64,000 nt of DNA from Arenicellales bacterium (GCA_965215945.1 CBDCFC010000018.1:61740-125739); one strand, 5' to 3'. Positions 25,739-47,003 are shown, counted from the first letter of the stretch. Translations and numbers: made by a program. The notes: generated by a model not told the origin, from the letters alone.

Positions 25739-25773
25739 AGGTTTTAAAGCCGTTAGCATGATAAAATACAGCC

Positions 25774-27835: not shown

Positions 27836-28525
<690 letters not shown>

Positions 28526-28537
28526 GAAAGAAATAAA

Positions 28538-29206: not shown

Positions 29207-29212
29207 ATTTTG

Positions 29213-29250
29213 CTTAGCGTACGTTTTCGTTCCGTTGGACTTCAAACCCC
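29213..29250 (-). repeat. Classical 38-bp Tn3-family terminal inverted repeat (unpaired)
   Basis: The reverse complement reads GGGGTTTGAAGTCCAACGGAACGAAAACGTACGCTAAG, matching the Tn3 IR pattern GGGG...GAACGAAAAC..ACG.TAAG. Confidence 0.88.
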
Positions 29251-29579: not shown

Positions 29580-30848
29580 TTGAAAGCATTTGCCATCGTA
29601 AATGATTCGCTTAGAGGTTCGTTACTTGATAGATCGACTAATTCATCTTCTAGAGTCCTATCTACATCAGATGAAATATCTCATCAATTAAAACAACTTA
29701 TTCCGGCATTAGAATTAAAAGAATCTGGTTCCTTTTTCACTGGCGATATTATGGCAAAACAAGCCATTAAAACATTAAGTAAGAGTTTTAATACTAATTC
29801 TATTCTTCTGGATCCAACATGCGGTATAGGAAATTTATTGATTTCAGCGTCAGAATATATGCCAGTTTTTGGTTCTTTACGGGATACCATTGAACATTGG
29901 GGACAAAGGCTACATGGATTCGACTTGCATCCTGAATTTGTTGAATGTACGAAATTAAGGTTAATTCAAACAGCAATTTATCGAGGTGCCAAACCTACTG
30001 GGAATAACTTGGAAGAAATAGAGTTTCTCTTTAAAAACATTAGAATTGGTAACATATTTAGCCACATTAATAATTGTGAAAGTGCTAGTCACATATTATT
30101 AAATCCACCTTATATCTTGAGGGCATTGCCAGAAGATCGAAGCTGGGGCCGCGGTAAAGTTAACATGGCTGCAGTATTTGTCGAGGATGTGTTTAAGCAC
30201 TGCAAAAAGGATACTCGATATGTGGCGATACTTCCAGATGTCTTAAGGAGCGGATCTAGGTATGTCAAATGGAGAGAATCAATTTCTTCAAATAATACTG
30301 TAGAGCAGAGCATTATTGGTCGGTTTGATAAAAAGACTGATGTTGATGTGTTTTTAATGACAGGAATCATCGGACATCCGTGTAAAAATAAAAATAATAA
30401 AATTAAAGTTTCCACTGTAGCAACAAAAGTAGGAGATAAATTCGATGTTCGTATTGGGCCCCTGGTCGCATATCGAGATAAGATGGTTGGCCAAATACAC
30501 CCATACATACAATCAAAGAATCTCAATATTTGGGATACAACAGAATCATTTAAATATAGAAGGACCAAGTGTACTTTGATAAAACCACCATTTGTCGTTA
30601 TTAACCGTACTTCAAGTCCCTCGGACAAACATCGTGCTAGAGCAACGATCATTGCCGGAAACCAACCTGTGGCAGTTGAAAATCATCTAGTTATATTGAA
30701 ACCTAAAAAAGGAGGGGTGCGTATTTGCCGCAGGTTAATTTCACAACTGAAGTCTGAGTCTACAAATCAATTTCTAAATAAAAGAATTCGATGTCGACAC
30801 TTGACTGTATCAGCAGTTAAAGAAATACCATGGCAAGAAAAATACTAG
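29580..30848 (+). CDS. Amino-DNA methyltransferase (m6A/m4C, gamma class, TaqI/Eco57I-like)
   Basis: Motif I LLDPTCGIGNLL precedes motif IV LLNPPY; a C-terminal target-recognition-like region follows. Confidence 0.88.
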   Translation: MKAFAIVNDSLRGSLLDRSTNSSSRVLSTSDEISHQLKQLIPALELKESGSFFTGDIMAKQAIKTLSKSFNTNSILLDPTCGIGNLLISASEYMPVFGSLRDTIEHWGQRLHGFDLHPEFVECTKLRLIQTAIYRGAKPTGNNLEEIEFLFKNIRIGNIFSHINNCESASHILLNPPYILRALPEDRSWGRGKVNMAAVFVEDVFKHCKKDTRYVAILPDVLRSGSRYVKWRESISSNNTVEQSIIGRFDKKTDVDVFLMTGIIGHPCKNKNNKIKVSTVATKVGDKFDVRIGPLVAYRDKMVGQIHPYIQSKNLNIWDTTESFKYRRTKCTLIKPPFVVINRTSSPSDKHRARATIIAGNQPVAVENHLVILKPKKGGVRICRRLISQLKSESTNQFLNKRIRCRHLTVSAVKEIPWQEKY

Positions 30849-31084
30849 ATTCTCTTCCTTTTGAGATTGAGGCTTGCATTTCCATACAGTTGGGTCGAGA
30901 AAGCATTTCAAGTTCCATAGTAGCAATCTCTGAATCAGTAAAAAATACATACGATGCGGATGCTACAAAAGTAAAAGTAGAATTAGTTAAAAACATTTGT
31001 GGCAATAATAGCTTGCTAATCTCTGATAATGGCCACGGAATGGACTTGAGTGATATCAATGGTGCACTACTTTTAGGTATATAG
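30830..31084 (+). pseudogene. Truncated GHKL (HATPase/MORC-like) ATPase N-terminal fragment
   Basis: SESVKNTYDADATKV and ISDNGHGM are GHKL motifs I and II; the frame stops after 84 aa, before the GxG motifs. Confidence 0.75.
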
Positions 31085-31096
31085 GGTGAGTAGTCA

Positions 31097-33877
31097 TTGT
31101 CTATGAAAAGGAAAAGCAGGGAGCAGTTATTCAGGATGCATGAATCTCGTACTGAAGCTCATACTAAATTGCTGAAGAAGCGTATTGTACGCAAGAAACG
31201 AACAAACGCGATAGTAAACAAAGGATTAAGTTTGGCTGAGTCAATTACTGAGAGCGAAGCACCTGTAAATATAATAAATGAAAACTCAGAGAAATTTATA
31301 TGTTCTGCTAGATTCGCGGATGAACGGGATGACACGCTTGATTATTTGCAGGCTGAGTTTCTTTACAAAATCCTAGCAGAGGAATTGACAAATCTGGCTG
31401 GCAAACTAAGAGTGAGTACAAATCTTGTATGGCCGGCTTATATGTCGTGTACACCTTTGATACATTCTGTAGCAACATGTGCAGCGTATGAATGGGGACG
31501 CAAAATTGGACTAAGGACATTATTGTATCCAGCGAAGGCAAATTCGTTTCGAGAGCTCAATCACATACGAATTGATGCGCAATGGCTCTATGATATTGCC
31601 CAGAATTGGCAATCAAAGATACGTGAAGGGACCACAGAATCAATTGTTTCGGATTGTGAGCATAAAGATATTCTCTATCTAACTCTTTGCCACTACCTAG
31701 ATGAGCCTGGAGATCCAGCCGGATACCCTAGCGTGGGAGAGACATTTCCCACATTTCCTGTCGGGCGACAAGTCTGGGGAAATTTTGAGGGCAAATTATT
31801 CAACAAAATTTTCAAGAAAGCCCCAAAAGCAGGAAAACCAGTGCAGTTACTAGGGCACCCATCGACTGCTCCAGATGCAATTTTCGGTATCCACCCCGAT
31901 TTAGATAATGATGCAATTACTGTAAGACTTACCACAGATGATCTAATGACTGAGACGGGTAGAAAACCCGATGTTGCAATTATTTCACTTGATAATAGAT
32001 CACGATCAAGCTTGAAGAACAACTGGGCAGAAAAAGCTGCAAAATTCACCCGTATGTGCCTTTTCGATCTGCCATATTCTCCAATTGGAGTTTTGGTGCT
32101 TGTAGATGATCCGATTGCGTATCTAACTTTTAGAAAAAAGCTTAAAAAGCATCTTCGCTTTAAGAAAAAACTATTGAGTAAGTCGAACGCCGTTTCGTAT
32201 CGTTCGATTTTCAACCTAAACAGTTCAATTAGCCCCAGGCATGGAATTCCTCAGCGGACGATCAGCGACATTCGTCTGAATGCCCATGTCGTCGACGCCG
32301 AGGCAGCCGCAGTCGCCGCTGAGTTCAGTCAGGCTGCGCGAGCAGTCCAAAGTGATAGTGAACCACTCGCGTTTGCTTTACGAGAATGTGGCGGCTATTT
32401 ACTGTGGTCAGCACGATTGCCGACGGGTCAAGCCGCCCTCCAGGAGATGTTGCATGATGACTCGGGCTCGGACCAGGAGCTGCAGTGGAAGACAGAAAGG
32501 TACAGCTGGATTGGTGTAATAAGTCGCCTGGACGAAATTAGGTCAAAAGTCGCTGAATCGGCCGAAACACCGAACATCGACCATTTGGTTGAAAAAGCGA
32601 ATGACATGTTGAATTCTTACAACTCAGGTACCCCCAGCGGTGCCAAGTTGAATGAGCTTGTCGCCGAGATAATGGAGGCGACTTCAGATTCTCGTGCGAA
32701 GAAGAAACAGCGCTCTCGACCAACGATTACTGTCGCAGTACCAAGTGCGCTTCAGGCCCGATTGATCTATGATGCTCTTGAGCGAGATTGGGGGCTTTTC
32801 GACGATCATGGAAATGAAGTCATTCAGGTTGTACGCACTGTCGAGCTTTTTTCTAGGAATGTGCCGGTCATAGCGCGACGATTGATTGTAATGGGCGCTC
32901 GCGCACAGACTATCGCTGAATTATGTAGTGCAAATGATTTGCCAAAGAGAATTGATCTAATCCTTAGCGCGGGAGACGCCGAGCGCGTGGTCCAGAGACT
33001 TGACTTTATTCTCAACGAAGAGGCCTTTGAGCAGCTTCATGAGCCAGTATCAGAATTGGTAGAGCAACTCAAAGGATTTCTGGAATCAGCTTCAACTCAA
33101 TTTTCGATACTGTCGAACTTGGTCTATTGGAGGCCACAGACTCATGTGCAGGCTTCGGCGTCTCTTTCATCAACTAATACAACAGATCCCGACTACCAGG
33201 TTCAGTTAGATGACGGAAGAACGATAGGGCTTTACAAGTCACGTCCAGTTCTAGTGTATGACGAAACGCGGCGTCCGCCATTTGCGCAAAGAGTAGGGTC
33301 TGAAGTCGAAGTCGGTGATCATCTACTGGTCATATCTGATGAAATGCGGAACGACATTGAAGCCTATATGGATCTGGCTGGCCGATTCAGAAACGAGAAT
33401 GTCGTGCGCAAGTATCATCAACATGTCTTGGAAAAGCTTCAAAGTCTATATCCAGACAGCAATCAGTCGCAATTAATAGACAGTGTGCAATCTGCCATCC
33501 AAGAGGCATTCCCCGATGCCGAGGATATTACTGAGCATAAGATTAGGTATTGGGTAACAGTCGGTCATGAAATTGACCAGTCATTTGATGACCTGCGGTC
33601 ACATGCGCCGCGCTCCAGGGAAGACTTTGACCTATTCATGCACGTGCTAGGTATAGATGAGCAACTCACGGACCTATATTGGACGCTAGGAATTAATAGC
33701 CTCAGGATTGATCGTCGTTATGAAGGGCGGCAGGCAACTTTGGTTTACCAACGCTTCTTGTTGGATTCCACGTCCGTTGCCGGGTTGCTGAGTATTCCCG
33801 CAGCCGAGGAGTCGAGGCTGTTGGTACAAGCGCGATCGAACGTGTTTGAGGTAATTGAGAAGAAGGAAATGCAGTGA
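31097..33877 (+). CDS. 926-aa protein of unknown function, DrmE-like by position and C-terminal pattern
   Basis: Its stop overlaps the drmA start (GTGA). No SNF2/helicase motifs are seen. The C-terminal pattern V..GD.LL...IRYW...P...DF..FM..LG...W resembles my recollection of DrmE and needs HMM confirmation. Confidence 0.5.
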   Translation: MSMKRKSREQLFRMHESRTEAHTKLLKKRIVRKKRTNAIVNKGLSLAESITESEAPVNIINENSEKFICSARFADERDDTLDYLQAEFLYKILAEELTNLAGKLRVSTNLVWPAYMSCTPLIHSVATCAAYEWGRKIGLRTLLYPAKANSFRELNHIRIDAQWLYDIAQNWQSKIREGTTESIVSDCEHKDILYLTLCHYLDEPGDPAGYPSVGETFPTFPVGRQVWGNFEGKLFNKIFKKAPKAGKPVQLLGHPSTAPDAIFGIHPDLDNDAITVRLTTDDLMTETGRKPDVAIISLDNRSRSSLKNNWAEKAAKFTRMCLFDLPYSPIGVLVLVDDPIAYLTFRKKLKKHLRFKKKLLSKSNAVSYRSIFNLNSSISPRHGIPQRTISDIRLNAHVVDAEAAAVAAEFSQAARAVQSDSEPLAFALRECGGYLLWSARLPTGQAALQEMLHDDSGSDQELQWKTERYSWIGVISRLDEIRSKVAESAETPNIDHLVEKANDMLNSYNSGTPSGAKLNELVAEIMEATSDSRAKKKQRSRPTITVAVPSALQARLIYDALERDWGLFDDHGNEVIQVVRTVELFSRNVPVIARRLIVMGARAQTIAELCSANDLPKRIDLILSAGDAERVVQRLDFILNEEAFEQLHEPVSELVEQLKGFLESASTQFSILSNLVYWRPQTHVQASASLSSTNTTDPDYQVQLDDGRTIGLYKSRPVLVYDETRRPPFAQRVGSEVEVGDHLLVISDEMRNDIEAYMDLAGRFRNENVVRKYHQHVLEKLQSLYPDSNQSQLIDSVQSAIQEAFPDAEDITEHKIRYWVTVGHEIDQSFDDLRSHAPRSREDFDLFMHVLGIDEQLTDLYWTLGINSLRIDRRYEGRQATLVYQRFLLDSTSVAGLLSIPAAEESRLLVQARSNVFEVIEKKEMQ

Positions 33878-36800
33878 ACGATGAGGTACCGAGTGTCGTG
33901 AATCGAGTCGATCCGACTTCCATCGACGTCACATTGAAAGAGGCTGTTGCTCACGCCTTACTAGGTTCCATATTCCAACGGCTTTCTGGTAATGGCCTGT
34001 CTGGTCGGACGCTACAGGGAGAGAAACCGTCACGACGCCTGACCAGCGCGTTTTTAATGCCAGCTAATCCGGACGAGGAAGGCTTGGATGATGAAACGTC
34101 GCCAATCAGGATTACGGCGACAGGTTTCGACTTCATGGTTAGGGCAGACGCAACCGGCACAGTCACTGCGCGTCCTCAATTTTCGATCTACCTTCGTGTG
34201 CTTCCGTCAGTTGAAGAGCTGAGGGAGGAGGGGGTTGGCTTTCGGCTCACGCAAGCGATTGACCGTGATGTGCGTCGAGAGGTCAGAGCTAGAGAGCGCA
34301 GTCTCTGGGAGGAGCAAAAAGGCGACCTTGATGGCGATAGAAATCATCCCGACTGGGTGCGGGCGCGCTCGAATATAGCGAGAGAGGTCTACGAGCAGTT
34401 TGGCGTGTACGAGAATAGTGAGGTCGTCGCCATTGAAGACACGCAAGAACAGTTAGAGGTTGGCGACGATGTATTCGAAGTCCGAGGTTTTCGCGTACAA
34501 CCGGGAGACACGACGTTTCCCTCCTCGGAAGTTGTTCGACCAGAGAAGCCAATCGAAAAGTGGGTTCGAGTTCCGATTACCTGCTCGCCACTAGTGTTTG
34601 ACCTTGACGACCAATCAAGCCTCGATTCTGCTGTGTCGCACTCCAACAATGATATTCGTGCAGCCATCAATGATGCGATAGACGAATGGTTGGAATCTGA
34701 GGATCCGGCAACAGGCGGGGTTCTATGGGCGTACCCGCGGAGGCGGGCCTTTACGCCGACGGAGATTGCCAATTGGCAAGATACTCTTGACGAGATTCGG
34801 GCCGCAACGGCAGATATGAGTCTCACGGATCGTCGCAATTTTACTGCACTGCCGGAGCTGAGTATCGAGTGGGCCGCGGCGATTAAGCCTGATTGGTCGG
34901 AGCCTACTCGTCGCGCTGTTCACGTGTCACTCGAGAATCGAAGCATTCGCCCGAGACAATACAGCTCAGAAACTGACGAGTCGATTTTTCAAGTTGGTCT
35001 TCGGTGCCAGGTGCCGGCAGATGCCCATACACCGATGAGGTTGGATCGAGTTAGGTCTTCTTATCGATTCAATCGGTATCTTCACTATTCGGCTCTCGGA
35101 TTCAACTGCGGAGTTCGGGACACACAAGAGCCGGGATTCGCTGTGCTCGAAACCGACTGGATGCCCAAATACGCACTGCCAAAGATCGAGCCGACAACGC
35201 ACGGCATCGATTGCACCTTCCAGTCTCTCGCAGACACTGATCGCAGCATGGGTGCAATTTCAGAAATCGCCAATGAGCTCCGTTCTTGGGTTGGACAATT
35301 AGACATTGATGTGGCCGACGGGCTGTCCGACTCCGAAGGAGAGAAGGCCGAACGTGAAAGAGTGCAATATGAAGCCGATCTGAACGCCTGGAACAGAGAG
35401 GCCGAGATGATACAGCGAGGGATTGACTTGCTAGGCCAAGCAAGTCAATTCGATAGCGAAGACAATCGATCTATCCCATTTCGAGCTTGGCTCCTAATGA
35501 ATGAGACTATGCGCCGACTTGCGTTAGGGCGCTACGACTCTTGGAGACTTTTCCAGCTTTCATTCGTATTGGCATCCTTGCCAAGTCTCGTCACTCGAAT
35601 GCCTGAATTTGCGGACGACTTCGATAGCGAAGTAGATGATGCGACTACACTGCTCTACTTTGCGACTGGCGGCGGCAAATCTGAGGCATTTTTTGGGCTC
35701 CTAGTATTTGCGCTGTTCTTCGATCGCTTGCGGGGCAAATCACTCGGTGTAACGGCGATGCTTCGCTATCCACTTCGCTTGCTCACTGTTCAACAAGCAC
35801 AAAGGGCATCGAAGGTTCTCGCGCGGGCGGAAATCGTAAGGCGAGAGAGTGGCATCAACGGCGAACCGTTCAGCATTGGATTCTGGGTTGGTAGCAGCAA
35901 CACACCAAATTACCACGGTGCCTTGGGCGTTGCAGACATTCCGTATATCGACGATATAGAGGATTCAGAGGAGGAGCTAAGGAGATCAAATAGGAAGTAT
36001 AAGCAAGCGGTATCTGATTGGTTGAAATTGCCGACCTGTCCGTTCTGCGGAGGCGTTACAGGACTTCGACGTACGCGCTCGGCGAACGATGTGATGCCAC
36101 ATGGTGTAGTTGGCCATGTTTGTCTAGAGAATCAGTGCGATTGGAATACTTCTAATGGCGAGTTACGTCCATTGCCGTTTTACATTGTCGACGCCGACAT
36201 ATACTCAGTTATCCCGTCGGTCCTCCTGGGGACGATTGATAAACTCGCGCTGATCGGGCAATCACCTCAAACAATCAGGCGTGTTCTAGGCATGTTCGGG
36301 TTTACGGCATGGCGGGACGCGTTATCAGGACGTTTTATCAATCCTACTCCTCAGCAGTTCGAGGAGGGGTCGGACAATGTTGTTCACTTAAAACCGATTT
36401 ACGACAATGGTGAATCGACATTTTTCGATCCGTTCCCTTCGCTGTTGATTCAAGACGAAGCGCATCTTCTTGAAGAGTCTCTTGGCACATTTGCCGGGCT
36501 GTTCGAGACGGCCTTGTTCGAAGTCTACAATCGTTTGGCGCATTACAACCCCAATGTTGCAAAAGCACCTAACGGCAATGTTCGAATGCCAAAGATTGTA
36601 GCTGCCACAGCTACGGTGTCAGATCCCGAGCGGCAAGTTGAGAATCTCTACCAAAGGCAGCTAATTCAATTTCCGTACCCCGGCCCGAGGTTGTACGAGT
36701 CGTTCTACGCTATGCCAGAGTTGCCAGAATTGGGTAACCAGGAACCAAGTGATGATGTAGAAGATATTGCGCATCAGAGGCGTATCTACGCGACCGTTCT

Positions 36801-38043
36801 TACGAATGGGAAACCGCACACGACTGCGTCGGTTTCGGTCTTGTCGGCATTCCATTCACAAATTACGTCTCTTTTCAGATCGCTTGTTGAAGGTGATCAG
36901 GAAACTAGAGGCCAGTCTCGGCAGACGCTTGCTGAAGCGCTTCCGACCGAGTCTGATCGCGATTCCTACATAAACGCGATTGAGAACGCTCCCTTCGATC
37001 ACCTGGCGACGTTGGTCGACCTGCATCGAATAGCCTTGACGTACGTCACAAACAAGAAAGGTGGCGATCAGATATTGGCGGCAGAGTCTGAGCAAGTTAG
37101 AAAGGACCACGTTCGCGAAACACTGCCGCACACAAATTTTGAACGACGTCTCATTACGGGGTCAGTCGACGCCGGCCTTATTCAACAAGTGATTGAGGAT
37201 GCGGAGTATAGACCGGCAGCAGGTCAACCCTTCTACGACCTTGACTCTAGCCTACGTTCTATCGTTGCTACATCCGCGATTTCCCATGGCGTTGACGTTG
37301 AAGAACTTAACTCGATGTTCTTTGCCGGTATGCCTTCGGACATTGCGGAATACATACAAGCTTCATCTCGAGTGGGTAGAACTCACGTTGGATTCAGTTT
37401 GTTGCTGCCAGTGCCACAGCGAAAACGCGATCGTTACATCGTTGAAACTCACGACATATTCCATCGTTTTTTGGAGCGGATGATCCAACCCCCCGCAATT
37501 GACAGATGGGCAGAAAAAGCACTGATTCGGGTTGTCCCCAGCTTCTTCCAAACTTACCTTGTTTGTGTCTTAGCAATACACAGGTTAGTTACCGCAGTGG
37601 CGGATCAGAAGGCCAGGGCCCCAACGTTCGGTCGGGTATCTGATGTGAGGAACGCGGCGGCCGATCCAGTCGGTTTTCGTGAAGGAGTTGTCAGCTTCAT
37701 CTCAGATGCGGTGGGACTCGCCGGCGCTTACGGGCCGCCGAATGGCGATTTCTATAATGAGCTCCTGCAGCTTAGGGTTCGGCAGCTCTTGGATGACATT
37801 CAGGAACCGGACATGGCCAATCTCACGATGCGAGATTTTTTCGATCAACTCGCAAAGCGGAGTCCGGAGACGCTTGAAAAGCCCATGACCTCCCTGCGCG
37901 ATGTCGATGTACCTGGTTATCTTGTGCCGGCGCCAGGCGATACCGGGAGGCCGAGCGCGCATCTAAACGATGAACAAATGGCTGAGTTGATGAGGTTTTT
38001 ACGTAGAGGCGGAGGCGGTGTAGTTGGCCGCGACGGAGCTTAG
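33874..38043 (+). CDS. drmA: DISARM DrmA-like SF2 helicase
   Basis: Motif I FATGGGKSEAF, Ia LRYPLRLLTVQQ, II QDEAH, III ATAT, V TSAISHGVDV and VI QASSRVGR; a CPFC Zn insert; C-terminal MTSLRDVD. Confidence 0.85.
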   Translation: MNDEVPSVVNRVDPTSIDVTLKEAVAHALLGSIFQRLSGNGLSGRTLQGEKPSRRLTSAFLMPANPDEEGLDDETSPIRITATGFDFMVRADATGTVTARPQFSIYLRVLPSVEELREEGVGFRLTQAIDRDVRREVRARERSLWEEQKGDLDGDRNHPDWVRARSNIAREVYEQFGVYENSEVVAIEDTQEQLEVGDDVFEVRGFRVQPGDTTFPSSEVVRPEKPIEKWVRVPITCSPLVFDLDDQSSLDSAVSHSNNDIRAAINDAIDEWLESEDPATGGVLWAYPRRRAFTPTEIANWQDTLDEIRAATADMSLTDRRNFTALPELSIEWAAAIKPDWSEPTRRAVHVSLENRSIRPRQYSSETDESIFQVGLRCQVPADAHTPMRLDRVRSSYRFNRYLHYSALGFNCGVRDTQEPGFAVLETDWMPKYALPKIEPTTHGIDCTFQSLADTDRSMGAISEIANELRSWVGQLDIDVADGLSDSEGEKAERERVQYEADLNAWNREAEMIQRGIDLLGQASQFDSEDNRSIPFRAWLLMNETMRRLALGRYDSWRLFQLSFVLASLPSLVTRMPEFADDFDSEVDDATTLLYFATGGGKSEAFFGLLVFALFFDRLRGKSLGVTAMLRYPLRLLTVQQAQRASKVLARAEIVRRESGINGEPFSIGFWVGSSNTPNYHGALGVADIPYIDDIEDSEEELRRSNRKYKQAVSDWLKLPTCPFCGGVTGLRRTRSANDVMPHGVVGHVCLENQCDWNTSNGELRPLPFYIVDADIYSVIPSVLLGTIDKLALIGQSPQTIRRVLGMFGFTAWRDALSGRFINPTPQQFEEGSDNVVHLKPIYDNGESTFFDPFPSLLIQDEAHLLEESLGTFAGLFETALFEVYNRLAHYNPNVAKAPNGNVRMPKIVAATATVSDPERQVENLYQRQLIQFPYPGPRLYESFYAMPELPELGNQEPSDDVEDIAHQRRIYATVLTNGKPHTTASVSVLSAFHSQITSLFRSLVEGDQETRGQSRQTLAEALPTESDRDSYINAIENAPFDHLATLVDLHRIALTYVTNKKGGDQILAAESEQVRKDHVRETLPHTNFERRLITGSVDAGLIQQVIEDAEYRPAAGQPFYDLDSSLRSIVATSAISHGVDVEELNSMFFAGMPSDIAEYIQASSRVGRTHVGFSLLLPVPQRKRDRYIVETHDIFHRFLERMIQPPAIDRWAEKALIRVVPSFFQTYLVCVLAIHRLVTAVADQKARAPTFGRVSDVRNAAADPVGFREGVVSFISDAVGLAGAYGPPNGDFYNELLQLRVRQLLDDIQEPDMANLTMRDFFDQLAKRSPETLEKPMTSLRDVDVPGYLVPAPGDTGRPSAHLNDEQMAELMRFLRRGGGGVVGRDGA

Positions 38044-38053
38044 GAGTTGGCTT

Positions 38054-40220
38054 ATGCCTGACAACAACATCAAAGCACCAATGATGCAGAGATCGCGGAC
38101 GCAGCTAATGTCTTCGTATGCGCCAGGCTCGTATTTCACTTTTGAGGGCGGACTCGCAGCCTGCAAGAGCGTGGCTATATCTGTGCGGCCGATAGACCTT
38201 CCGCATCACACTGTCCGAATAGTCCGAGACCGGATTGAGGAGCTTGTTCGTAGTTGGTATGACCGTGCGATCTCCGCAAGAGGAGATAACGACGATCGAC
38301 GTATTTTTTCCTGATATGTGTGTCGACGGGCGGTTGATAGATCAGTCTGGCGCAGGAATTCGTGGCGATCTTGGATCCTTATTCGAGCTCGTTGTACCTA
38401 GCAGAGTTGGCTATGTACCAGAGCCAATCACTTTGATCTGCGGCAACTGCAATCGGATTCATTGGTATGACAGTTCATACCAGCTTTATCGTGACCTCGA
38501 TCGTATTCGAAACGAGCGGTGCCCTGCCGACGATGGTAATTCAACGTGCGACTGGCAACAGTTGGATGTTATGTTCGTCCATTGGTCGGGTGGGGCGGAA
38601 TCTGCAAAGCCAGAGCGCAATCAATGGTACGCCGACAGCGGTGTGACGCATACGAGATGGAGTTGCACTTGTGGATCGCGAGAGGTAGCGCTTGATAGAA
38701 GTGCTTCGCAAATAGGTAGTTGGTCGTTCCGTTGTGCATCCTGTGGATTGCCACAGCCGGATCGCTGGGTTCAGCTCGATAGAGACACTCTCGGAATGCT
38801 GAGAGAAAGCTTCTTCACCGATGGTCGAAGAGCCGATACGGCAATGGAAGCGACTTCATATAGGGCCTCTGTCGTTCACTACGTCCAGGGCGACCGCGTG
38901 ATTGCGTTCAAGGACGGTAGCTTGCTCGAGAAACTCAATCCCACTCGCGTCGAGGAGCTGAAGTTATTTGTTGCACAAAAATTCGGTTTCGACAGTGCCG
39001 AGATCGACGAAGATTCGATCCGTGAAGCCATTGGACAGTATCCAGATGAGGCGGACAGATTAGATACGTATCAGAAAAGAATGGAGATGGCCGAAGAGGT
39101 TGATAATCAAGGCCTGGCAGACGTCGCACAGCAACTCAGGGAGTCAGCAGGAGAGATTAGAGACCAATGGCAGCAGAGTGGTTACTTGATGCCGACGGCA
39201 GACCTGCCTGCAGCATTGGAAAATTCCTTAAACGCTAGACGAAATCTTCCGTCAAAGTACGACCCGTTTCGGCTCTTAGTGGAGCACGAGTGCCTTGAGA
39301 ATGAGTGTCTTAGACAAGGGCCGGGCCCGACAGGCAAACGCCCGTTCGTTCCATTCGATAACCCAGATACTGATTTGGTCCATCCGGAGTTCGCAGATGG
39401 TATTGAAGATTACAAAGCGCGATTAGGTGTGACCCGAATCGGCTTAATCCGAAATTTTGAATTGTGCTTCTTTTCGTACGGGTATACGCGAATGAGTGCA
39501 ACACCGACGTTACCCAATAAGCACAACACAACGATGCCCGTGCGGCTGAACCTGTTTCGTCCTATTAATGTCCGCGAGAGGCAAGCTAATCCGATTTACA
39601 CAGTCAAGCAGGAGAATGAAGCGATATACGTACAGCTTGACGAAGAGGTAGTTAGGCAGTGGTTACTTGGACTTGGTTGTGCTGAAGGAGAGGCTTTGGA
39701 GAATGGTCCAATCGGGAGCATAACTCTTCAGAACGTATTTCCTATGTCGGCGTATTTGGACAACTTGCCGACACGTGACGATAGACAGCCGCCAAATGTG
39801 TACTTGGCGACATATACATTACTTCACACCTATGCGCATCACCTAGTCCACGCAATTACAGAGTTTGCTGGTTTGGATGCTGGGTCATTGGGCGAGTACA
39901 TATTTCCAGGAGATCTATCATTCGTGGTCTACCGGTCTGGTATGACGATGGACCTAGGCAACATTTCCGCGATGTGGCGAAACAATGGACGCGCGTTTCT
40001 TGATCACCTGCTTATCCCTACGTCGCTGAACTGCGGACTGGGAACGCTTTGTACTGAACGAGGAGGAGCGTGTCCCAATTGCATCATGGTTCCCGAGGTA
40101 ACCTGCATCGCCCAGAATCGTCTGCTGTCGCGCTCGGTATTGAATGGTGACGGACGCCCAGAAGAAGATGGCACAAACGACAGAATCACGGGTTACTTTG
40201 AGATTGCGGGTAGTCGATAG
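38054..40220 (+). CDS. drmB: DISARM DrmB-like DUF1998 protein (one +1 frameshift in a T run near 38305)
   Basis: AGGAG RBS, ATG 38054 and N-terminal RSRTQLMSSYAPG. A six-T run, where five would keep the frame, joins ORF 38024-38314 to ORF 38235-40220. The C-terminus has LLHTYAHHL and C..G.LC...GGACPNC...E.TC. Confidence 0.85.
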
Positions 40221-40225
40221 GCGCG

Positions 40226-41101
40226 ATGGCACAAATAGACCCCAAGTTGATTGACTCTCTGACCGACTATCTGCAGACCGCACGTAGTGTGGTGGCAGGT
40301 TTCGAGGGCGGTGAGATGTCGAGCCAATACTCAGTGGCAGATTTAACCCGAGCGGCTTCGATTCCTCACGTACGGAAATCGGAGGCAATCACCGTCCTCG
40401 GAATCCTGGAGCAGCATGGGATGGTTAGAAAGAACGGCGATACCTGGTCTCGTGTTTCTTCGCTGGACGACCTCGATGCCTTGGGATATGCGCTTCTTGG
40501 AGCCCAAGTACAGAAAGAAATTTCAGCTAAGGTAATTGAGTTTGAAAGTCAGGAAGTTGTACTAACGCGCCCACGAGCGCCAAGTCAGCTGGACCAGGTT
40601 ATCGGCAACGACGCCTCACTTCTGGTCCATATTGAAAACACTGATGACGCGTTCGCATCTCTTGCCGCGTCAGCTCGCACATCTCTAACGATAATGACGC
40701 CATTTCTGGACAATGTTGGGGCGAAGTGGGCAGTGGCGCTTTTCGAGGCCGCGGATAGAGCAGTATCAAAGGAGTTGATACTGAGGTTCCTGCAGGATTC
40801 AGAGAGTGACCTGTATCCGGAAGGCTATCCAAGCATCGCAGATGATCTCCGGCGGTTACAGGTCAAGGTCTATGACTTCGCCGTGCCAAGGCCAGACACA
40901 ACAAATTTCTTTGAAACTTTTCATGCGAAAGTGATTTGTGCCGATGGGGAGCGAGCATATGTCGGTTCGGCTAATCTAAGTCAACATTCAAAGGAAACGT
41001 CTATGGAGTTAGGTATGTTGGTTTCGGGATCGGCAGCAGCCCGTGTTAAATCCATTTTGGATAAAGTAAGAGATATCGCAATACTAGAGAAAATCAGATA
41101 A
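40226..41101 (+). CDS. drmC: DISARM DrmC-like phospholipase D-family nuclease
   Basis: A single HKD motif FHAKVICAD followed by YVGSANLS...ELG. Confidence 0.85.
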   Translation: MAQIDPKLIDSLTDYLQTARSVVAGFEGGEMSSQYSVADLTRAASIPHVRKSEAITVLGILEQHGMVRKNGDTWSRVSSLDDLDALGYALLGAQVQKEISAKVIEFESQEVVLTRPRAPSQLDQVIGNDASLLVHIENTDDAFASLAASARTSLTIMTPFLDNVGAKWAVALFEAADRAVSKELILRFLQDSESDLYPEGYPSIADDLRRLQVKVYDFAVPRPDTTNFFETFHAKVICADGERAYVGSANLSQHSKETSMELGMLVSGSAAARVKSILDKVRDIAILEKIR

Positions 41102-41313
41102 TCGTACATTGTATTATCAGAAGTTAAATTCCATCGCATTTTATATTTGTGAAGGTTACTGGTTGTCTGATTCAATGGTTTAGTTGTTTTTCTTATAGGT
41201 TAGTTGCAAATATTCTTACGAATTAATTGGACGCCCAACTGCAAAGCTAGACAGCCGCGGTGCATATAAATATTACTTTACATAATATATATTATGCGCA
41301 ATCATTACTTATA

Positions 41314-41521
41314 TCAGTCAATGAGCAATGATACTCGTTTGATAGAAGACCAAGGAATAAAAGGATGTGTGTTTTTAAAGATCAACTTGGCATGCTCAAT
41401 AATGACACCAGTGGAATCTACTCCCATTAATTTGAAAGTATTTTCTGTTTTCTTGTAATCTAAATCAGGGTAAACAAATTCTATTTTTATAAGCTGTCCA
41501 ACATGGTTTTCAAATAGTTGG
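41314..41521 (-). pseudogene. Small hypothetical gene whose 5' end is replaced by the Tn3 left IR
   Basis: The first ~15 codons of track ORF 41314-41565 lie within the IR at 41522-41558. Confidence 0.35.
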
Positions 41522-41634
41522 CCCAGTGCCCACGAAGCTGTGCAAAACGGCAAGATTTTCGTCAAAATTGAACAGCCATTCTAAATACAAAATGTTCCAT
41601 TTATTATTTCCGTTAGATTGTGTATTATCTACCG

Positions 41635-44542
41635 ATGAAACAGTTTTGGACAGACACTGAACTCGGCAATTGGTGGACACTCACAGATCAGGATCATGCG
41701 CTTCTCAAGGGTAAAGCCGGGTCCGGTCGATTAGCCATTGCCTTACAGCTAAAATATTACCAGCTGTATGCTCGATTTCCAGAGTCTGTACAATACTTCC
41801 CGAATTGTGTTGTCGATTATGTCAGCACACAAATTAATCATCCATCCGATGATCTTACCCATTACTCAGAAAACAGCCGGACCGCTCGTCAGCATAGACG
41901 TTTTATTCTCTCACATCTGAAAATTTCACCTTTTGATGGTGTTTATGAAACCTCATTATGTCACTGGTTAATGGAAACAGTTCTGCCACAGGCACCGAAT
42001 GCTTCGTACCAGGATGAGCTGATTACAACCTGGTTTATTAACAATAAAGTTGAGCGCCCAGGAGCCTATCGACTGGAGTGTGTGATCAAATCCACCGAAC
42101 GTGAATTTGACGCTTATTTCAGAGGGTCAATCAATCACTGCCTAAAACAGTATGCCGCCAGCTAGATGCACTGCTTACAGAAGGCGATGGAAAAAGTGAT
42201 TTTTCGTGGATTCGTTCAGATATGGGACCGGTCAGTCTGGCGAGTGTATTACAGGCTATCGACAAACTGGAAAGGCTCAGACAGTTGAAGATTCCCGCAG
42301 ATATTATAAAAGGGATTCATCCCAAATTAATCAGCCGATATCGACAAAGGGCGGCGACAGAAAATGCCTGGGAGCATCGTCGCCACCCATCATCGATTCG
42401 TTATTCACTTTTGGTTTTCTATTGTGTTGTACGTGAAAGTGAGATTATCGATACACTGGTTGATTTGCTTATTCAGGTTATTCACAAGCTGTCGGTTCGT
42501 TCTGAACGAAAAGTCATCAATGAACTGATCAGTAACATCACCCAGGTTCATGGCAAGAACACTATTTTGTTTCATATTGCAGAAGCGGCCACGGGGAATC
42601 CTGACGGAACCGTTCGAGAAGTTATCTTTCCCGTTGCCCCGGAAGACATGATGAACAACCTGGTTAAGGAATTTCGCTCCAGCGGTCCGGCTTATGTTAA
42701 GAGAATATACACCAAGATTCGCTCGTCCTACGCCCATCATTATCGACGCATGTTACCGCGCATTTTGGATGTACTGGTATTTCGTTCAAATAATTCAAGT
42801 TGGCGCTCAATGGTAGATGCCATCACAATTATTCAAAACGCTCAATCGGATCGTCGTCGTTATTTCTCGCTGGACGAGGTGCCTATTGAGGACATTATTC
42901 AAAATAAGTGGCAGGATATTGTGATTGAACGCGCCCCCGATGGGACGCAACGCATCAACCGTATTAATTATGAAATCTGTGTACTGCAATCGCTGCGTAA
43001 CAAATTACGGTGCAAGGAGATATGGGTTGAAGGTGCCGACCGGTTCTGTAATCCGGATGATGATACCCCTGCTGATTTTGAAGAAAATCGTGCTGCTTAC
43101 TATGCGGCACTAAATTGGCCTGTGAATTCCAGAGTTTTTATCGAACAAACCCGGGCCAGTCTGACGCAGGCATTAAGCCAGCTTAATGAGAACCTGCCGC
43201 ACAATACCAGGGTTTCTATCGTGCGCAGAGGAAAAAAGTCGCATATTCGTGTTGCCAAGCTTGATCGTCAAACGGATCCACCGACATTAGCAGCTGTAAA
43301 AGCGGAGTTGAGTCATCGGTGGCCGGCCACCAGTTTACTGGATGTACTCAAAGAAACCGATTACCGGGTTGGATTTACAAAAGTGTTTTCGTCTTCTGCC
43401 TCTAGAGAGGCTATTACACCGGACGACCTCATGTATCGTTTACTGCTTACACTATATGGGTTGGGAACTAACGCGGGACTAAAACGGCTTGCGTCCGGGC
43501 AAAGCAGTCCCAGTTATAAAGAACTTCGGCACATACGCCTGCGTTTTATCAATAAGGATTCCTTGCGTGAGGCCATCAGACAGGTTGTTAACGCCACTTT
43601 TCGGGTAAGATCACCAAAAATATGGGGTGAAGCGACCACGACCTGCGCCTCAGATTCGACACAGGTGGGTGCGTGGGACCAAAATCTGATGACGGAATGG
43701 CACATTCGTTATGGTGGGCCGGGTGTCATGATTTACTGGCATGTGGATGAAAATGCAACGTGTATTTATTCGCAACTAAAACGCTGTTCCTCATCTGAAG
43801 TGGCATCAATGATCGAGGGCGTGTTGCACCACTGCACGGATAAAGAGGTCAAACAGCACTACGTCGATAGCCACGGTCAAAGCGTGGTCGCCTTTGCCTT
43901 CTGCCATCTTTTGGGTTTTTCATTAATGCCTCGTTTTAAGGGAATTGATAAAATCAAACTGGTCCAGCCTCAAAAAGGATCACGCAAAGATTATCCAAAC
44001 ATTGAATCCATATTTCAAAGCAAACCCATTAAATGGAATCTGATTGCACAACAATATGACGAACTGATTAAATTGGCCACTGCGTTACGTGAATTTACAG
44101 CGCAACCCGAGGCCATTTTGCGACGGTTTACTCGCCACAACGCACAGCACCCTACCTATCGAGCGCTGATTGAATTAGGCCGGGCTATTAAAACGATTTT
44201 TGTGTGTAATTATCTGATGTCGGAGGCGCTTCGCCAGGAAATCAATACCGGGCTGAATGTGATTGAACGATGGCATGGCGTGAACGATTTTATCTATTTT
44301 GGCAAGACGGGAGAACTGTCAACAAACAAAACAGACGATCAGGAGATTTCCATCCTGTCATTACATTTACTGCAAATGTCTCTAGTGTATATCAATACAT
44401 TGATGATTCAGCAGATACTGGCAGAATCGGTGTGGTTTGATCGGATGACGGAACGTGATATGGCTGCACTGACCCCGACGGTCAATTCGAGCTGGATATG
44501 GATCAGCGCTTGAAGTTAGACGAATTTCCCATGGCAGCATAA
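41635..44542 (+). pseudogene. tnpA: Tn3-family transposase (DUF4158 + DDE_Tnp_Tn3), frameshifted near 42150-42220 and with a short deletion near 44475
   Basis: N-part RLAIALQLKY; C-part CASDS, WHIRYGGPG, YVDSHG and LNVIERWHGVN..IYFG. The terminal GQFELDM lies out of frame right after LTP. Confidence 0.85.
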
Positions 44543-44625
44543 TGAGATGTGGATACTTAAACATAGTTTCATTCGTTGGATCAGGGGCTTTGCCTTTTTC
44601 GTAATTTATAAATTGTTGAGTTGCT

Positions 44626-45216
44626 ATGAAAGTTCGTGAAAGTGGGATGCCAGATAAAGATGTATGGCAATCCTTTTTCAATCCTGGTGATATTCTCACC
44701 AAGCTTGGAGTTAACTCATCAATAAAGCATATCGTTGATTTTGGTTGCGGTTACGGTACATTTTCCATAGCTGCTGCAAAGTATATTTCTGGAAATGTTT
44801 ATGCACTAGATATAGAGCATTCGATGCTGGAACAAGCAAAGGATCAAGCCTCATCTCTGAATATCTCAAATATCAATTTTATTCATCGTGATTTTGTTTC
44901 AGATGGAACTGGACTGCCGGATAAAAGCGTGGATTATGCGATGATATTTAATCTCTTACATATTGAAAACCCCATCCTTTTATTAACAGAAGCCTTTCGT
45001 ATATTAATAGATAACGGTCAACTCGGTATTATCCATTGGATTCATGATCCGGATACGCCACGAGGGCCACCAATATCAATTCGACCAACCCCCGAACAAT
45101 GCCAGCACTGGGCAACTCAGACAGGGTTCATTAATATCAGGCAGGAAGTTATTGATTTAGCGCCTTACCATTTTGGATTAGTCTTTAACAAATCGAGAAA
45201 AAGGCGCTTACCGTGA
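44626..45216 (+). CDS. Class I SAM-dependent methyltransferase
   Basis: VDFGCGYG motif I, YALDI and VDYAMIFNLLH. Confidence 0.88.
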   Translation: MKVRESGMPDKDVWQSFFNPGDILTKLGVNSSIKHIVDFGCGYGTFSIAAAKYISGNVYALDIEHSMLEQAKDQASSLNISNINFIHRDFVSDGTGLPDKSVDYAMIFNLLHIENPILLLTEAFRILIDNGQLGIIHWIHDPDTPRGPPISIRPTPEQCQHWATQTGFINIRQEVIDLAPYHFGLVFNKSRKRRLP

Positions 45217-46028
45217 ACGAAGAAACTGCTGTTTTCAATCATGAACCCATCATCAGACTCGGGATTTTTGGTTTTCTTTTTCTCTTTATCTCTGTTTACG
45301 AAGTCATAGCGCCGCGTCGAAAATTGGATATCAAACGTTCAGTTCGTTGGTCAAATAACCTCGCCATTGCGATACTTAATACCGTTGTTTTGCGATTACT
45401 CTTCCCTGGCGCAGCAGTTGGCATAGCTTATTATGCTGAATCATTAGATTCATCTTTAATGAAATTCCTTCCATTCCCTGGTTGGATGGATGTTGTAATA
45501 GCGATAATACTGCTGGATTTGGCGATTTACTTCCAACACCGATTATTTCACGCTATTCCATTTACTTGGCGATTGCATAGAATGCACCATGCAGATACAA
45601 CTTTCGATATCACCACCGGATTACGTTTCCATCCTTTGGAAATTATTCTTTCCATGCTGATTAAGTCACTGGCTATTATTGTTATTGGTGCACCTGTTTT
45701 AGCTGTATTGATTTTTGAATTATTATTAAGTTCTACTTCCTTATTTAATCACGGCAATATGAAGCTTCCCAAGAATGTAGACCATCTAATCCGTTGGTTC
45801 ATCGTCACACCGGATATGCATAGAGTACATCATTCCAGTACAGGTGTTGAAACGGATAGTAACTTTGGGTTTAACTTGCCTTGCTGGGATAGATTGTTTA
45901 ATACATACAAAGATCAACCTAAATTAGGCCATAGAAATATGGAGATTGGATTGAAGGAATTTCGTAATTCTAAAGAATTAAGGATCGATCAATTACTCAC
46001 ACAGCCTTTTCGGAGTGAAAAAAAGTGA
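45213..46028 (+). CDS. Sterol desaturase / fatty acid hydroxylase family membrane protein
   Basis: His boxes YFQHRLFH, WRLHRMHH, FNHGN and HRVHH; GTGA overlap with the upstream gene. Confidence 0.9.
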   Translation: MNEETAVFNHEPIIRLGIFGFLFLFISVYEVIAPRRKLDIKRSVRWSNNLAIAILNTVVLRLLFPGAAVGIAYYAESLDSSLMKFLPFPGWMDVVIAIILLDLAIYFQHRLFHAIPFTWRLHRMHHADTTFDITTGLRFHPLEIILSMLIKSLAIIVIGAPVLAVLIFELLLSSTSLFNHGNMKLPKNVDHLIRWFIVTPDMHRVHHSSTGVETDSNFGFNLPCWDRLFNTYKDQPKLGHRNMEIGLKEFRNSKELRIDQLLTQPFRSEKK

Positions 46029-46843: not shown

Positions 46844-46877
46844 CGAAAGTTTTCATTTCTTTAGGATTTCAATCCCC
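46839..46877 (-). repeat. Second classical Tn3-type IR (39 bp, unpaired), same orientation as 29213-29250
   Basis: The reverse complement reads GGGGATTGAAATCCTAAAGAAATGAAAACTTTCGCTAAG. Confidence 0.72.
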
Positions 46878-46893
46878 GATAAATGGCATGACT

Positions 46894-46921
46894 TGTTCCG
46901 AAATTTATAAATTAAGGAACG
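46894..46921 (+). promoter_or_regulatory. res site I of the Tn3-family transposon
   Basis: 28-bp dyad TGTTCCGAAATTTATAAATTAAGGAACG centred on TTATAA, upstream of the resolvase. Confidence 0.7.
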
Positions 46922-47003
46922 TTTTTTTAGTTCAGCAAAATCAATCGGTTACAGATTCCGTATTTTTGTTCCGTAGCAAAACACCCAAAACAGGGAAATT
47001 TCC

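What the first reader, a model, noticed from the sequence alone, without database searches (positions are those of the whole stretch)
31097..41101. DISARM-like four-gene defence operon without its canonical methylase
Seen: a tightly coupled run of a 926-aa unknown, an SF2 helicase (1389 aa), a DUF1998 protein (~720 aa) and a PLD nuclease, followed by AT-rich DNA with no methylase. Known: DISARM class 1 is drmABC plus the SNF2 helicase drmD and adenine methylase drmMI; class 2 is drmE-drmA-drmB-drmC plus the 5mC methylase drmMII. The gene order here is class 2-like, but there is no 5mC MTase (no PC motif) in the window, and the only DNA MTase is an upstream NPPY amino-MTase from an apparently different module. 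Inference: this is a DISARM variant that is methylation-independent, uses a borrowed adenine mark, or carries a novel first subunit. It is the best candidate in the window for an undescribed defence subtype.
Basis: partly seen in the sequence, partly recalled or inferred. Interest (0 to 1): 0.75.

Follow-up and report, generated by a model that had tools for sequence, protein, structure and literature searches.

The report
Broken DISARM-like operon missing its methylase
This is a damaged copy of a widespread but unnamed relative of the DISARM anti-phage system. Relatives carry their own adenine DNA methylase, so the missing methylase here is a local deletion, found together with a frameshift in drmB, not a methylation-free subtype.

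Summary
X (926 aa, no family match), DrmA (1389 aa), DrmB (frameshifted) and DrmC (PLD nuclease) form a tightly coupled, GC-rich run at 31103-41101. No cytosine methylase is found in the window or in the 91.6%-complete genome.

X is a real, unclassified first subunit. It has no PADLOC DrmD or DrmE hit, no Pfam hit and no PDB sequence hit. Its predicted fold is an SF2 helicase without a Walker A motif.

Methylase absence is not a feature of the subtype:
- All 8 close loci have a ~580-aa Eco57I-type adenine methylase beside the operon.
- So do about 70 of 71 assessable loci among 79 from other species.
- X sits directly upstream of DrmA in 71 of 72 assessable loci.

In the window that methylase is gone. 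X abuts an 84-codon stump of a GHKL/MORC-like ATPase gene, which belongs to a different methylase cassette. No remnant of the lost genes exists elsewhere in the genome. drmB carries a +1 frameshift in a T6 run.

Best reading: a deletion-fused, probably inactive remnant of an undescribed five-gene DISARM-like class. The class is moderately novel; this copy is degenerate.

The parts
29208..29250 (.). Tn3-family terminal inverted repeat. It marks the end of a transposon remnant to the left (resolvase 27959-28525, HAD hydrolase 28538-29206).
   Evidence: Megablast hits of 92-97% to Tn3-family ends on Vibrio, Marinomonas, Nitrosococcus and Stutzerimonas plasmids. Resolvase and HAD by Pfam.
29580..30848 (+). 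Intact 422-aa N6-adenine DNA methylase (NPPY motif, Eco57I/N6_Mtase type). It belongs to a foreign methylase-GHKL cassette and is not the cognate methylase of the DISARM-like operon.
   Evidence: Pfam Eco57I and N6_Mtase. Only 21-23% identical to the cognate methylases. Full-length member of a family of more than 3300 proteins of about 425 aa. In L010 and L011 this family is followed at once by a 686-758-aa HATPase_c_3 protein.
30830..31087 (+). 84-codon stump of a GHKL (paraMORC-like) ATPase gene. It overlaps the methylase stop by 19 nt and is cut off after the DNGxGM motif.
   Evidence: HATPase_c_3 at 4e-11. 50% identical to residues 1-83 of the 758-aa L011 protein. The rest of that protein is found nowhere in the genome.
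31079..31102 (.). Rearrangement junction. Homology to the GHKL gene ends here and homology to the DISARM-like operon begins at the X start codon. In relatives the cognate methylase ends 1-20 nt upstream of X.
31103..33877 (+). X, the class-specific first subunit (about 924 aa from ATG 31103; the ORF opens at TTG 31097). Predicted SF2-helicase fold without a Walker A motif.
   Evidence: Aligns end to end with 8 close homologues. 236 clusters at 50% identity in 1.84 billion representatives. AF2 pLDDT 85.6. Foldseek hits to RIG-I, Hef, FANCM and DDM1 at 2.5e-8 and weaker. Motif columns.
33874..38043 (+). DrmA, an SF2 (YprA-type) helicase with intact GGGKS and DEAH motifs.
   Evidence: PADLOC DrmA 9.5e-87. 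PDB 7S9V DrmA 6.8e-52. 71% identical over its full length to L007 DrmA. Motifs visible in the translation.
38055..38314 (+). drmB 5' part (residues 1-83 of the protein), ending in a premature stop caused by the frameshift.
   Evidence: 82% identical to L007 DrmB residues 1-83.
38304..38309 (+). T6 run holding a +1 frameshift in drmB.
   Evidence: The two tblastn segments meet here. Sequence. Relatives have one uninterrupted ORF of 719-723 aa.
38310..40220 (+). drmB 3' part (residues 84 to about 720), including the four-cysteine DUF1998-type C-terminus.
   Evidence: 75% identical to L007 DrmB residues 83-718. PADLOC DrmB 3e-15.
40226..41101 (+). DrmC, a PLD-family nuclease with the HKD motif present.
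   Evidence: PADLOC DrmC 8e-20 and Pfam PLDc_2 9e-11.
41102..41518 (.). AT-rich spacer with no convincing gene. It ends at the left inverted repeat of a Tn3-family element.
41519..47606 (+). Tn3-family transposon with 40-nt inverted repeats. It holds a frameshifted tnpA, a small-molecule-type SAM methyltransferase, a fatty-acid hydroxylase, a phosphonate-binding protein and a resolvase. It is not part of the defence system but bounds it.
   Evidence: Inverted-repeat pair I1, 98% complementary. Pfam results. tnpA frames.

Best explanation
The four genes are what remains of a five-gene DISARM-like defence operon. Its normal form is an Eco57I-type N6-adenine methylase, X, DrmA, DrmB and DrmC.

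How the intact system probably works:
- Inferred from the Serratia DrmAB structures: the DrmA-DrmB helicase complex loads on invading DNA, favouring single-stranded 5' ends and unmethylated DNA, and translocates along it.
- Inferred: the PLD nuclease DrmC is an accessory.
- Inferred from fold and motifs only: X acts as a non-catalytic DNA-binding or adaptor subunit in the place that DrmD or DrmE occupy in the known classes. It has the fold of an SF2 helicase (RIG-I/Hef-like, with an inserted helical domain) but lacks a Walker A motif.

What happened in this genome:
- Shown: the cognate methylase gene is absent, and the 3' part of a neighbouring methylase/GHKL-ATPase cassette is absent too.
- Shown: X now sits about 15 nt after an 84-codon GHKL stump, behind a foreign methylase.
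- Shown in the assembly, not checked in reads: drmB carries a +1 frameshift in a T6 run.
- Inferred: a single deletion between two adjacent cassettes would account for both losses.
- Inferred: the copy is an inactive remnant. Loss of the methylase may have made the restriction part harmful and selected for the drmB frameshift, as reported for class 2 DISARM.
For: Cognate methylase in relatives:
- All 8 loci holding close X homologues (41-78% identity) have a 534-586-aa Eco57I/N6_Mtase gene 1-20 nt upstream of X.
- In 79 further species genomes found with a DrmA profile, 69 of 79 have the cognate-family methylase.
- The other 10 are cut by contig ends, except L064, which has a divergent Eco57I-type methylase downstream.
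- X lies directly upstream of DrmA in 71 of 72 assessable loci.

Loss in the window:
- The window methylase is only 21-23% identical to the cognate family.
- It belongs to a family of about 425 aa that is followed by a HATPase_c_3 gene.
- The 84-aa ORF after it is the N-terminus of that ATPase.
- Neither the cognate methylase nor the rest of the GHKL cassette is found elsewhere in the genome.

drmB frameshift:
- Located by tblastn.
- The assembly is not indel-ridden: ORFs of at least 100 aa cover 85.4% of it, with a median of 278 aa.

System identity:
- DrmA, DrmB and DrmC identities.
- X fold and motifs.
- Literature: loss of drmMII in class 2 DISARM was deleterious to cells (10.1101/2021.12.28.474362, citing Ofir 2018). 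The DrmAB mechanism is in PMC9142583.
Against: - A one-base homopolymer error would leave drmB intact.
- Indels of this kind do occur in relatives' assemblies. DrmA is split in L004, and DrmB is 461 aa in L002 against 720 aa in L003 for the same organism.
- In Serratia class 1 DISARM, loss of the methylases caused no autoimmunity and defence persisted. A methylase-less copy therefore need not be toxic or dead.
- X, DrmA and DrmC are full-length with their motifs intact, so any decay is recent.
- The single-deletion scenario is inferred. No ancestral arrangement with both cassettes side by side was found.
Confidence: 0.68

Rival explanations
1. Functional hybrid. After the rearrangement, X-DrmABC is transcribed behind the foreign 422-aa adenine methylase and uses its m6A mark for self-protection. 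The drmB frameshift would be a sequencing error, or the two pieces would still work.
For: - The foreign methylase is intact, with motif I and NPPY present.
- It lies in the same orientation, 255 nt upstream of X, with no terminator-like gap examined.
- X, DrmA and DrmC are intact.
- In Serratia, methylation by either of two unrelated methylases damps DISARM.
Against: - The junction truncates a gene, which looks accidental and not like a designed module swap.
- In about 70 of 71 assessable loci the system keeps its own methylase family, which suggests specificity.
- drmB is frameshifted in an otherwise clean assembly.
Confidence: 0.12
2. Methylase-independent defence. X-DrmAB(C) recognises invader DNA by structure (5' single-stranded ends) and works without any methylase, so loss of the methylase is tolerated and the remnant still defends.
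For: - Serratia class 1 DISARM protects without its methylases and shows no autoimmunity.
- DrmAB discriminates by DNA structure through a trigger loop.
- An earlier scan note reports methylase-free drmE-drmA-drmB trios in another lineage (untested here).
Against: - Within this class the methylase is essentially always present, which argues that it is needed.
- DrmAB heterodimer formation is essential in Serratia, and drmB is broken here.
Confidence: 0.15
3. Assembly artefact. The 36% to 50% GC switch at about 31090 is a chimeric join in a draft or metagenome-derived assembly, and the real operon has its methylase.
For: - The genome is a 51-contig draft, 91.6% complete.
- There is an abrupt GC change at the junction.
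- Reads could not be inspected.
Against: - The GC-rich block is embedded in one 215-kb contig with low-GC DNA on both sides, so two false joins would be needed.
- Estimated contamination is 0.52%.
- No contig holds the missing methylase or the GHKL remainder.
Confidence: 0.04

Closest known systems
DISARM class 1 (drmD, drmMI, drmA, drmB, drmC; Serratia sp. SCBI; Ofir 2018 as cited in 10.1101/2021.12.28.474362; Bravo 2022, PMC9142583)
   Same: - A split YprA-type helicase (DrmA plus a separate DUF1998-type DrmB) with a PLD nuclease DrmC.
- An adenine methylase and a helicase-fold auxiliary protein encoded upstream of drmA.
- DrmA matches the solved Serratia DrmA (7S9V) at 6.8e-52.
   Different: - The auxiliary protein X is not an SNF2 ATPase. 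It has no PF00176 or PADLOC DrmD hit, no Walker A motif and no conserved arginine finger.
- The methylase is Eco57I/type II-like (PADLOC MTase_II PDLC03338 at about 1e-117), not the DrmMI/PglX type.
- The match to Serratia DrmA covers only the helicase core (residues 446-947), so the first 445 residues differ.
- In the window itself the methylase is missing.
DISARM class 2 (drmE, drmA, drmB, drmC, drmMII; Bacillus paralicheniformis; Ofir 2018 as cited)
   Same: - The gene order, with an unknown large protein followed by DrmA, DrmB and DrmC, is the same as drmE-drmA-drmB-drmC.
- The first protein has no Pfam domain.
- Loss of the methylase was reported to be deleterious, which would fit the drmB frameshift here.
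   Different: - X does not match the PADLOC DrmE models.
- The methylase of the class is an N6-adenine enzyme, usually upstream, not a 5mC enzyme downstream.
- Only 2 of 79 related loci hold any C5-methylase-like ORF within 10 kb, and the own genome holds none.
Uncharacterised 'DISARM-like classes' of the YprA helicase tree (Bell et al. 2025, 10.1101/2025.09.15.676423)
   Same: That survey states that the DISARM-like clade contains many uncharacterised DISARM-like classes. The class found here is most likely one of them.
   Different: The main text of the paper neither names nor describes a class with an Eco57I-type methylase and this helicase-fold protein. Its supplementary tables were not examined.
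Methylase-linked paraMORC/GHKL cassettes (Iyer, Abhiman & Aravind 2008, PMC2292703; Bellieny-Rabelo et al. 2021, PMC8011034)
   Same: The window's 422-aa methylase and the 84-aa HATPase_c_3 stump match the first two genes of such cassettes. L010 has the order methylase, GHKL protein with a second kinase-type HATPase domain, small protein, metallo-beta-lactamase-fold protein.
   Different: Only the methylase and the first 84 codons of the ATPase survive here. The papers were identified by title and abstract and were not read in detail.

Membership tests
DISARM (core) | DrmA: SF2 helicase of the YprA/DrmA type | tested here: met
   PADLOC DrmA 9.5e-87. Pfam Helicase_C. PDB 7S9V DrmA 6.8e-52. GGGKS and DEAH motifs present.
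DISARM (core) | DrmB: a separate DUF1998-type protein encoded next to DrmA | tested here: met
   PADLOC DrmB 3e-15 over the C-terminal 200 residues. Pfam PF09369 was not reached at E<=1e-3. The gene is interrupted by a +1 frameshift.
DISARM (core) | DrmC: PLD-family nuclease | tested here: met
   PADLOC DrmC 8e-20 and PLDc_2 9e-11.
DISARM (core) | A DNA methylase belonging to the operon | tested here: not met
   In the window, no cognate methylase and no remnant of one. In relatives it is present in about 70 of 71 assessable loci.
DISARM class 1 | DrmD: SNF2 helicase (PF00176) | tested here: not met
   X has no Pfam or PADLOC hit at E<=10. The DrmD models PDLC02622 and PDLC02632 do not match the locus. 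X does have an SF2 fold, so very remote descent cannot be excluded.
DISARM class 1 | DrmMI: PglX-like N6-adenine methylase (PF13659) | tested here: not met
   The cognate methylases of relatives match MTase_II PDLC03338 best (about 1e-117), with no DrmMI model among the 25 best. The DrmMI models PDLC02640 and PDLC02645 find nothing in the own genome.
DISARM class 2 | DrmE | tested here: not met
   No PADLOC DrmE hit for X or for 10 diverse X homologues. PDLC02636 finds nothing in the own genome. No profile-profile or structural comparison with DrmE was possible.
DISARM class 2 | DrmMII: C5-cytosine methylase (PF00145) | tested here: not met
   None in the own genome. A motif screen finds a C5-type ORF in only 2 of 79 related loci. 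That screen is a regular expression, not an HMM.
New class: Eco57I-type methylase, X, DrmA, DrmB, DrmC | X homologue immediately upstream of DrmA | tested here: met
   True in the window, in the 8 close loci and in 71 of 72 assessable species loci.
New class: Eco57I-type methylase, X, DrmA, DrmB, DrmC | Methylase of about 580 aa from the cognate Eco57I-type family adjacent to the operon | tested here: not met
   Absent from the window and from the genome. The window copy is therefore an incomplete member.

The most novel reading that the evidence does not exclude
The rearrangement created a working hybrid. X-DrmABC is now read through from a foreign adenine methylase of a paraMORC cassette and uses that enzyme's mark for self-protection, and the drmB frameshift is an assembly error. 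This would show that DISARM-like effectors can swap methylases as modules. Separately, and more likely, the class itself (Eco57I-type methylase, ATPase-dead helicase-fold X, DrmABC) is an undescribed third DISARM class.
Probability: 0.1. Interest if true: 0.65.

Novelty: new variant of a known kind. Interest (0 to 1): 0.45.

Why it matters
DISARM is still poorly understood. What the class-specific subunits (DrmD, DrmE) do, and how methylation is read, are open questions (PMC9142583, discussion). This locus led to a third, widespread architecture. X forms 236 clusters at 50% identity. The architecture was seen in 79 species of Beta-, Gamma- and Alphaproteobacteria and Acidobacteriota, plus a cyanobacterial MAG.

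The architecture has two distinctive parts. The auxiliary subunit has a helicase fold with degenerate ATPase motifs. The methylase is an ordinary type II-like adenine enzyme. The PADLOC 2.0 library has no model that matches X. By the class 1 and class 2 definitions quoted from the literature, such loci would fit neither.

The class offers a simpler setting for asking what the auxiliary subunit does. The window copy is a natural methylase-loss mutant with a broken drmB. That hints that in this class, as in class 2, the effector is harmful without its methylase.

Tried and rejected
- The first AF2 run of X with 9 close sequences gave pLDDT 51 and was unusable. A 65-sequence alignment fixed this.
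- Profile searches of X against PDB sequences, Pfam and PADLOC gave nothing meaningful.
- hhalign of X against DrmA showed no relation.
- I located the PADLOC DrmE model (PDLC02636) in order to collect DrmE sequences for a profile-profile test. It found none in 400 genomes of the same phylum, so the comparison could not be made.
- My first greedy ORF map wrongly suggested four complete loci without a methylase. Pfam on their neighbours found no methylase either. Six-frame HMM searches then showed that all four have the methylase directly upstream of X. The error came from spurious antisense ORFs in high-GC DNA.
- Megablast of the region against plasmids matched only the Tn3 end.
- I looked for the rest of the GHKL gene downstream of DrmC and beyond the Tn3 element, and found none.
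- No clean 5-bp target duplication flanks the Tn3 element, so nothing can be said about what it displaced.
- An McrBC association is seen only in L064.
- Ofir et al. 2018 is not held. Its statements are cited second-hand.
Full report
**1. What is in the window**

Four forward-strand genes lie at 31.1-41.1 kb.
- X runs from 31097/31103 to 33877 (926 aa).
- DrmA runs from 33874 to 38043 (1389 aa). Its GTG start overlaps the X stop by 4 nt.
- DrmB starts at ATG 38055, 11 nt after DrmA.
- DrmC runs from 40226 to 41101 (291 aa), 5 nt after DrmB.

The block is 49-55% GC, while the flanks are 36-42% GC. The 418 bp after DrmC are AT-rich.

PADLOC assigns DrmA (9.5e-87), DrmB (3e-15) and DrmC (8e-20). 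Pfam sees Helicase_C and PLDc_2. DrmA also matches the solved Serratia DrmA, PDB 7S9V, at 6.8e-52 over its helicase core. X matches nothing in PADLOC or Pfam, even at E<=10.

drmB is in two frames. An intact 719-aa homologue aligns with residues 1-83 in one frame (82% identity) and residues 83-718 in the next (75% identity). The two segments meet at the T6 run 38304-38309, so there is one base too many in that run.

**2. The upstream methylase is foreign**

The 422-aa NPPY methylase at 29580-30848 is a full-length member of a large family of about 425-aa adenine methylases, with more than 3300 hits. In two loci of that family, L010 and L011, the methylase is followed at once by a 686-758-aa HATPase_c_3 (GHKL, MORC-like) protein and two smaller genes.

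In the window, an ORF starts at ATG 30830 and overlaps the methylase stop by 19 nt. It encodes 84 residues that are 50% identical to the N-terminus of the L011 ATPase. It matches HATPase_c_3 at 4e-11 and stops right after the DNGxGM motif at 31087.

So the methylase and this stump are the remains of a methylase-linked paraMORC-type cassette. Cassettes of this kind are described in PMC2292703 and PMC8011034, which I identified but did not read in detail.

**3. Relatives carry their own methylase**

X has only eight close relatives (41-78% identity) among 5.8 billion proteins. Every one of their loci has a 534-586-aa Eco57I/N6_Mtase gene 1-20 nt upstream of X. Where the contig allows, DrmA (about 1385 aa), DrmB (719-723 aa) and DrmC (287-293 aa) follow. 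These methylases match PADLOC MTase_II PDLC03338 best (about 1e-117) and not DrmMI. They are only 21-23% identical to the window's methylase.

A DrmA-profile scan of one genome per species returned 80 loci with full-length DrmA at 37-58% identity. They come from Beta-, Gamma- and Alphaproteobacteria, Acidobacteriota, one Synechococcus MAG and one bin labelled Parcubacteria. L012 repeats the record behind L002, so the counts below use the 79 loci L013-L091.

Six-frame HMM searches of those 79 loci gave these counts:

| Feature | Count |
|---|---|
| X homologue directly upstream of DrmA | 71 of 72 loci with enough upstream sequence |
| Cognate-family methylase | 69 of 79 |
| DrmB | 74 of 79 |
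| DrmC-like PLD protein | 53 of 79 |
| C5-methylase-like ORF within 10 kb | 2 of 79 (motif screen only) |

By my ORF map, 42 of the 58 cognate methylases it found lie upstream, next to X, and 16 lie downstream of DrmB or DrmC, some on the other strand. Of the ten loci without a methylase hit, nine are cut by contig ends. The tenth, L064, has a divergent Eco57I-type methylase after DrmC.

An earlier count of 'four methylase-less loci' was an artefact of my ORF picking. I withdrew it.

**4. What happened here**

tblastn finds no trace of the cognate methylase in the window or in the 3.36-Mb, 91.6%-complete genome. It also finds no trace of the remainder of the GHKL cassette. Homology to the GHKL gene ends at about 31078, and homology to the DISARM-like operon begins at the X start codon, 31103.

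The simplest history is one deletion between two neighbouring, co-oriented defence cassettes. It would have removed the 3' part of the first cassette and the methylase of the second. This is an inference, because no intact ancestral arrangement was found.

The Tn3-family element at 41519-47606 and the Tn3 end at 29208-29250 flank the region, but neither sits at the junction.

X was not found in any of 60 related genomes searched, including three of the same genus. The block is therefore a horizontally acquired island.

**5. Is the frameshift real?**

The assembly as a whole is clean: ORFs of at least 100 aa cover 85.4% of it, with a median of 278 aa. The neighbouring housekeeping and Tn7-like genes are uninterrupted. 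The only other broken gene I saw in the window is the Tn3 transposase. I put the frameshift at roughly two to one in favour of being real.

**6. What X is**

A profile of X finds 236 clusters at 50% identity in 1.84 billion representatives. Most listed hits are 860-960 aa, and the shorter ones match only part of the profile.

With a 65-sequence alignment, AlphaFold2 gives pLDDT 85.6 and pTM 0.67. Foldseek against the PDB returns SF2 helicase cores with an inserted helical domain, at E = 2.5e-8 to about 3e-6 and probability 1.0. The hits are RIG-I, MDA5, LGP2, Hef, FANCM, Dicer-2 and the SNF2 enzyme DDM1. The whole-chain TM-scores are low (0.2-0.37), as expected for multi-domain proteins.

The family alignment shows no GK[ST] P-loop. 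After the first strand there is instead a conserved W-P...H pattern. A D-[DE]-P triplet remains at the end of the motif II-like strand. No conserved arginine finger is present in the second RecA-like domain. X shows no profile-level relation to DrmA.

I therefore read X as a helicase-fold protein that has lost ATPase chemistry. It probably serves as a DNA-binding or bridging subunit. This rests on fold and motifs only.

**7. Mechanism**

For the intact class I infer the DISARM scheme:
- the methylase marks self DNA;
- DrmAB loads on invading DNA and translocates, favouring 5' single-stranded ends, with methylation damping its ATPase (PMC9142583);
- DrmC is an accessory nuclease;
- X occupies the role of the class-specific partner (DrmD or DrmE).

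For the window copy, the missing methylase and the broken drmB point to an inactive remnant.

The literature is split on whether methylase loss is harmful. It was reported as deleterious in class 2 and harmless in Serratia class 1 (10.1101/2021.12.28.474362). The link between methylase loss and the frameshift is therefore a hypothesis.

**8. Comparison with known systems and novelty**

The core is DISARM. By the definitions quoted:
- class 1 needs DrmD (SNF2) and DrmMI;
- class 2 needs DrmE and DrmMII.

Neither pair is met here. Bell et al. 2025 state that the DISARM-like clade of YprA helicases holds many uncharacterised classes. They do not describe this one in their main text. My literature searches found no name for it.

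I rate the class as a new variant of a known kind. The window copy is an incomplete member of it. Notes from this scan describe other DISARM variants in other genomes, but none with this X protein.

**9. Verdict**

Noticed in passing
window 41519-47606: Tn3-family transposon with 40-nt inverted repeats (98% complementary). Its tnpA is frameshifted between 42111 and 42165. The cargo is a small SAM methyltransferase, a fatty-acid hydroxylase and a phosphonate-binding protein, followed by a resolvase. No clean 5-bp target duplication flanks it.
   Followed up: partly
window 27959-29250 and 46834-46876: A resolvase, a HAD hydrolase and a Tn3-type end at 29208-29250 look like the remnant of a second Tn3-family element. 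A 74%-identical copy of that end lies inside the other transposon, just before its resolvase, which suggests nested or recombined Tn3 elements.
   Followed up: no
window 25382-27369: An IS66-family element with an intact TnpB-like Orf2 (118 aa) and a 531-aa DDE transposase.
   Followed up: no
window 41314-41580 (minus strand): An 88-codon open frame runs into the left inverted repeat of the Tn3 element. It may be the stump of a gene cut by the insertion.
   Followed up: no
The DISARM-like remnant lies on the tnsA side, among several mobile elements.
   Followed up: no
L064:17788-22664: In one distant member (an uncultured Caulobacter MAG), the DISARM-like operon is followed by a divergent Eco57I-type methylase and an McrB-like AAA_5 gene with a partner. 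This recalls the McrBC-linked DISARM-like cassette mentioned by Bell et al. 2024. It was not seen in the other 78 loci.
   Followed up: partly
L004:12781-16951; L002 versus L003 at about 16924-19086: Relatives' assemblies also contain split genes. DrmA is 1249 + 157 aa in L004. DrmB is called as 461 aa in the NCBI MAG but 720 aa in the Logan contig of the same organism. Single-base indels in such loci can therefore be assembly errors.
   Followed up: no
L010:8272-11917: The GHKL partner of the window-type methylase carries a second, kinase-type HATPase domain at its C-terminus. A 238-aa protein and a metallo-beta-lactamase-fold protein follow it. This is a four-gene methylase-linked cassette of unknown mechanism.
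   Followed up: partly
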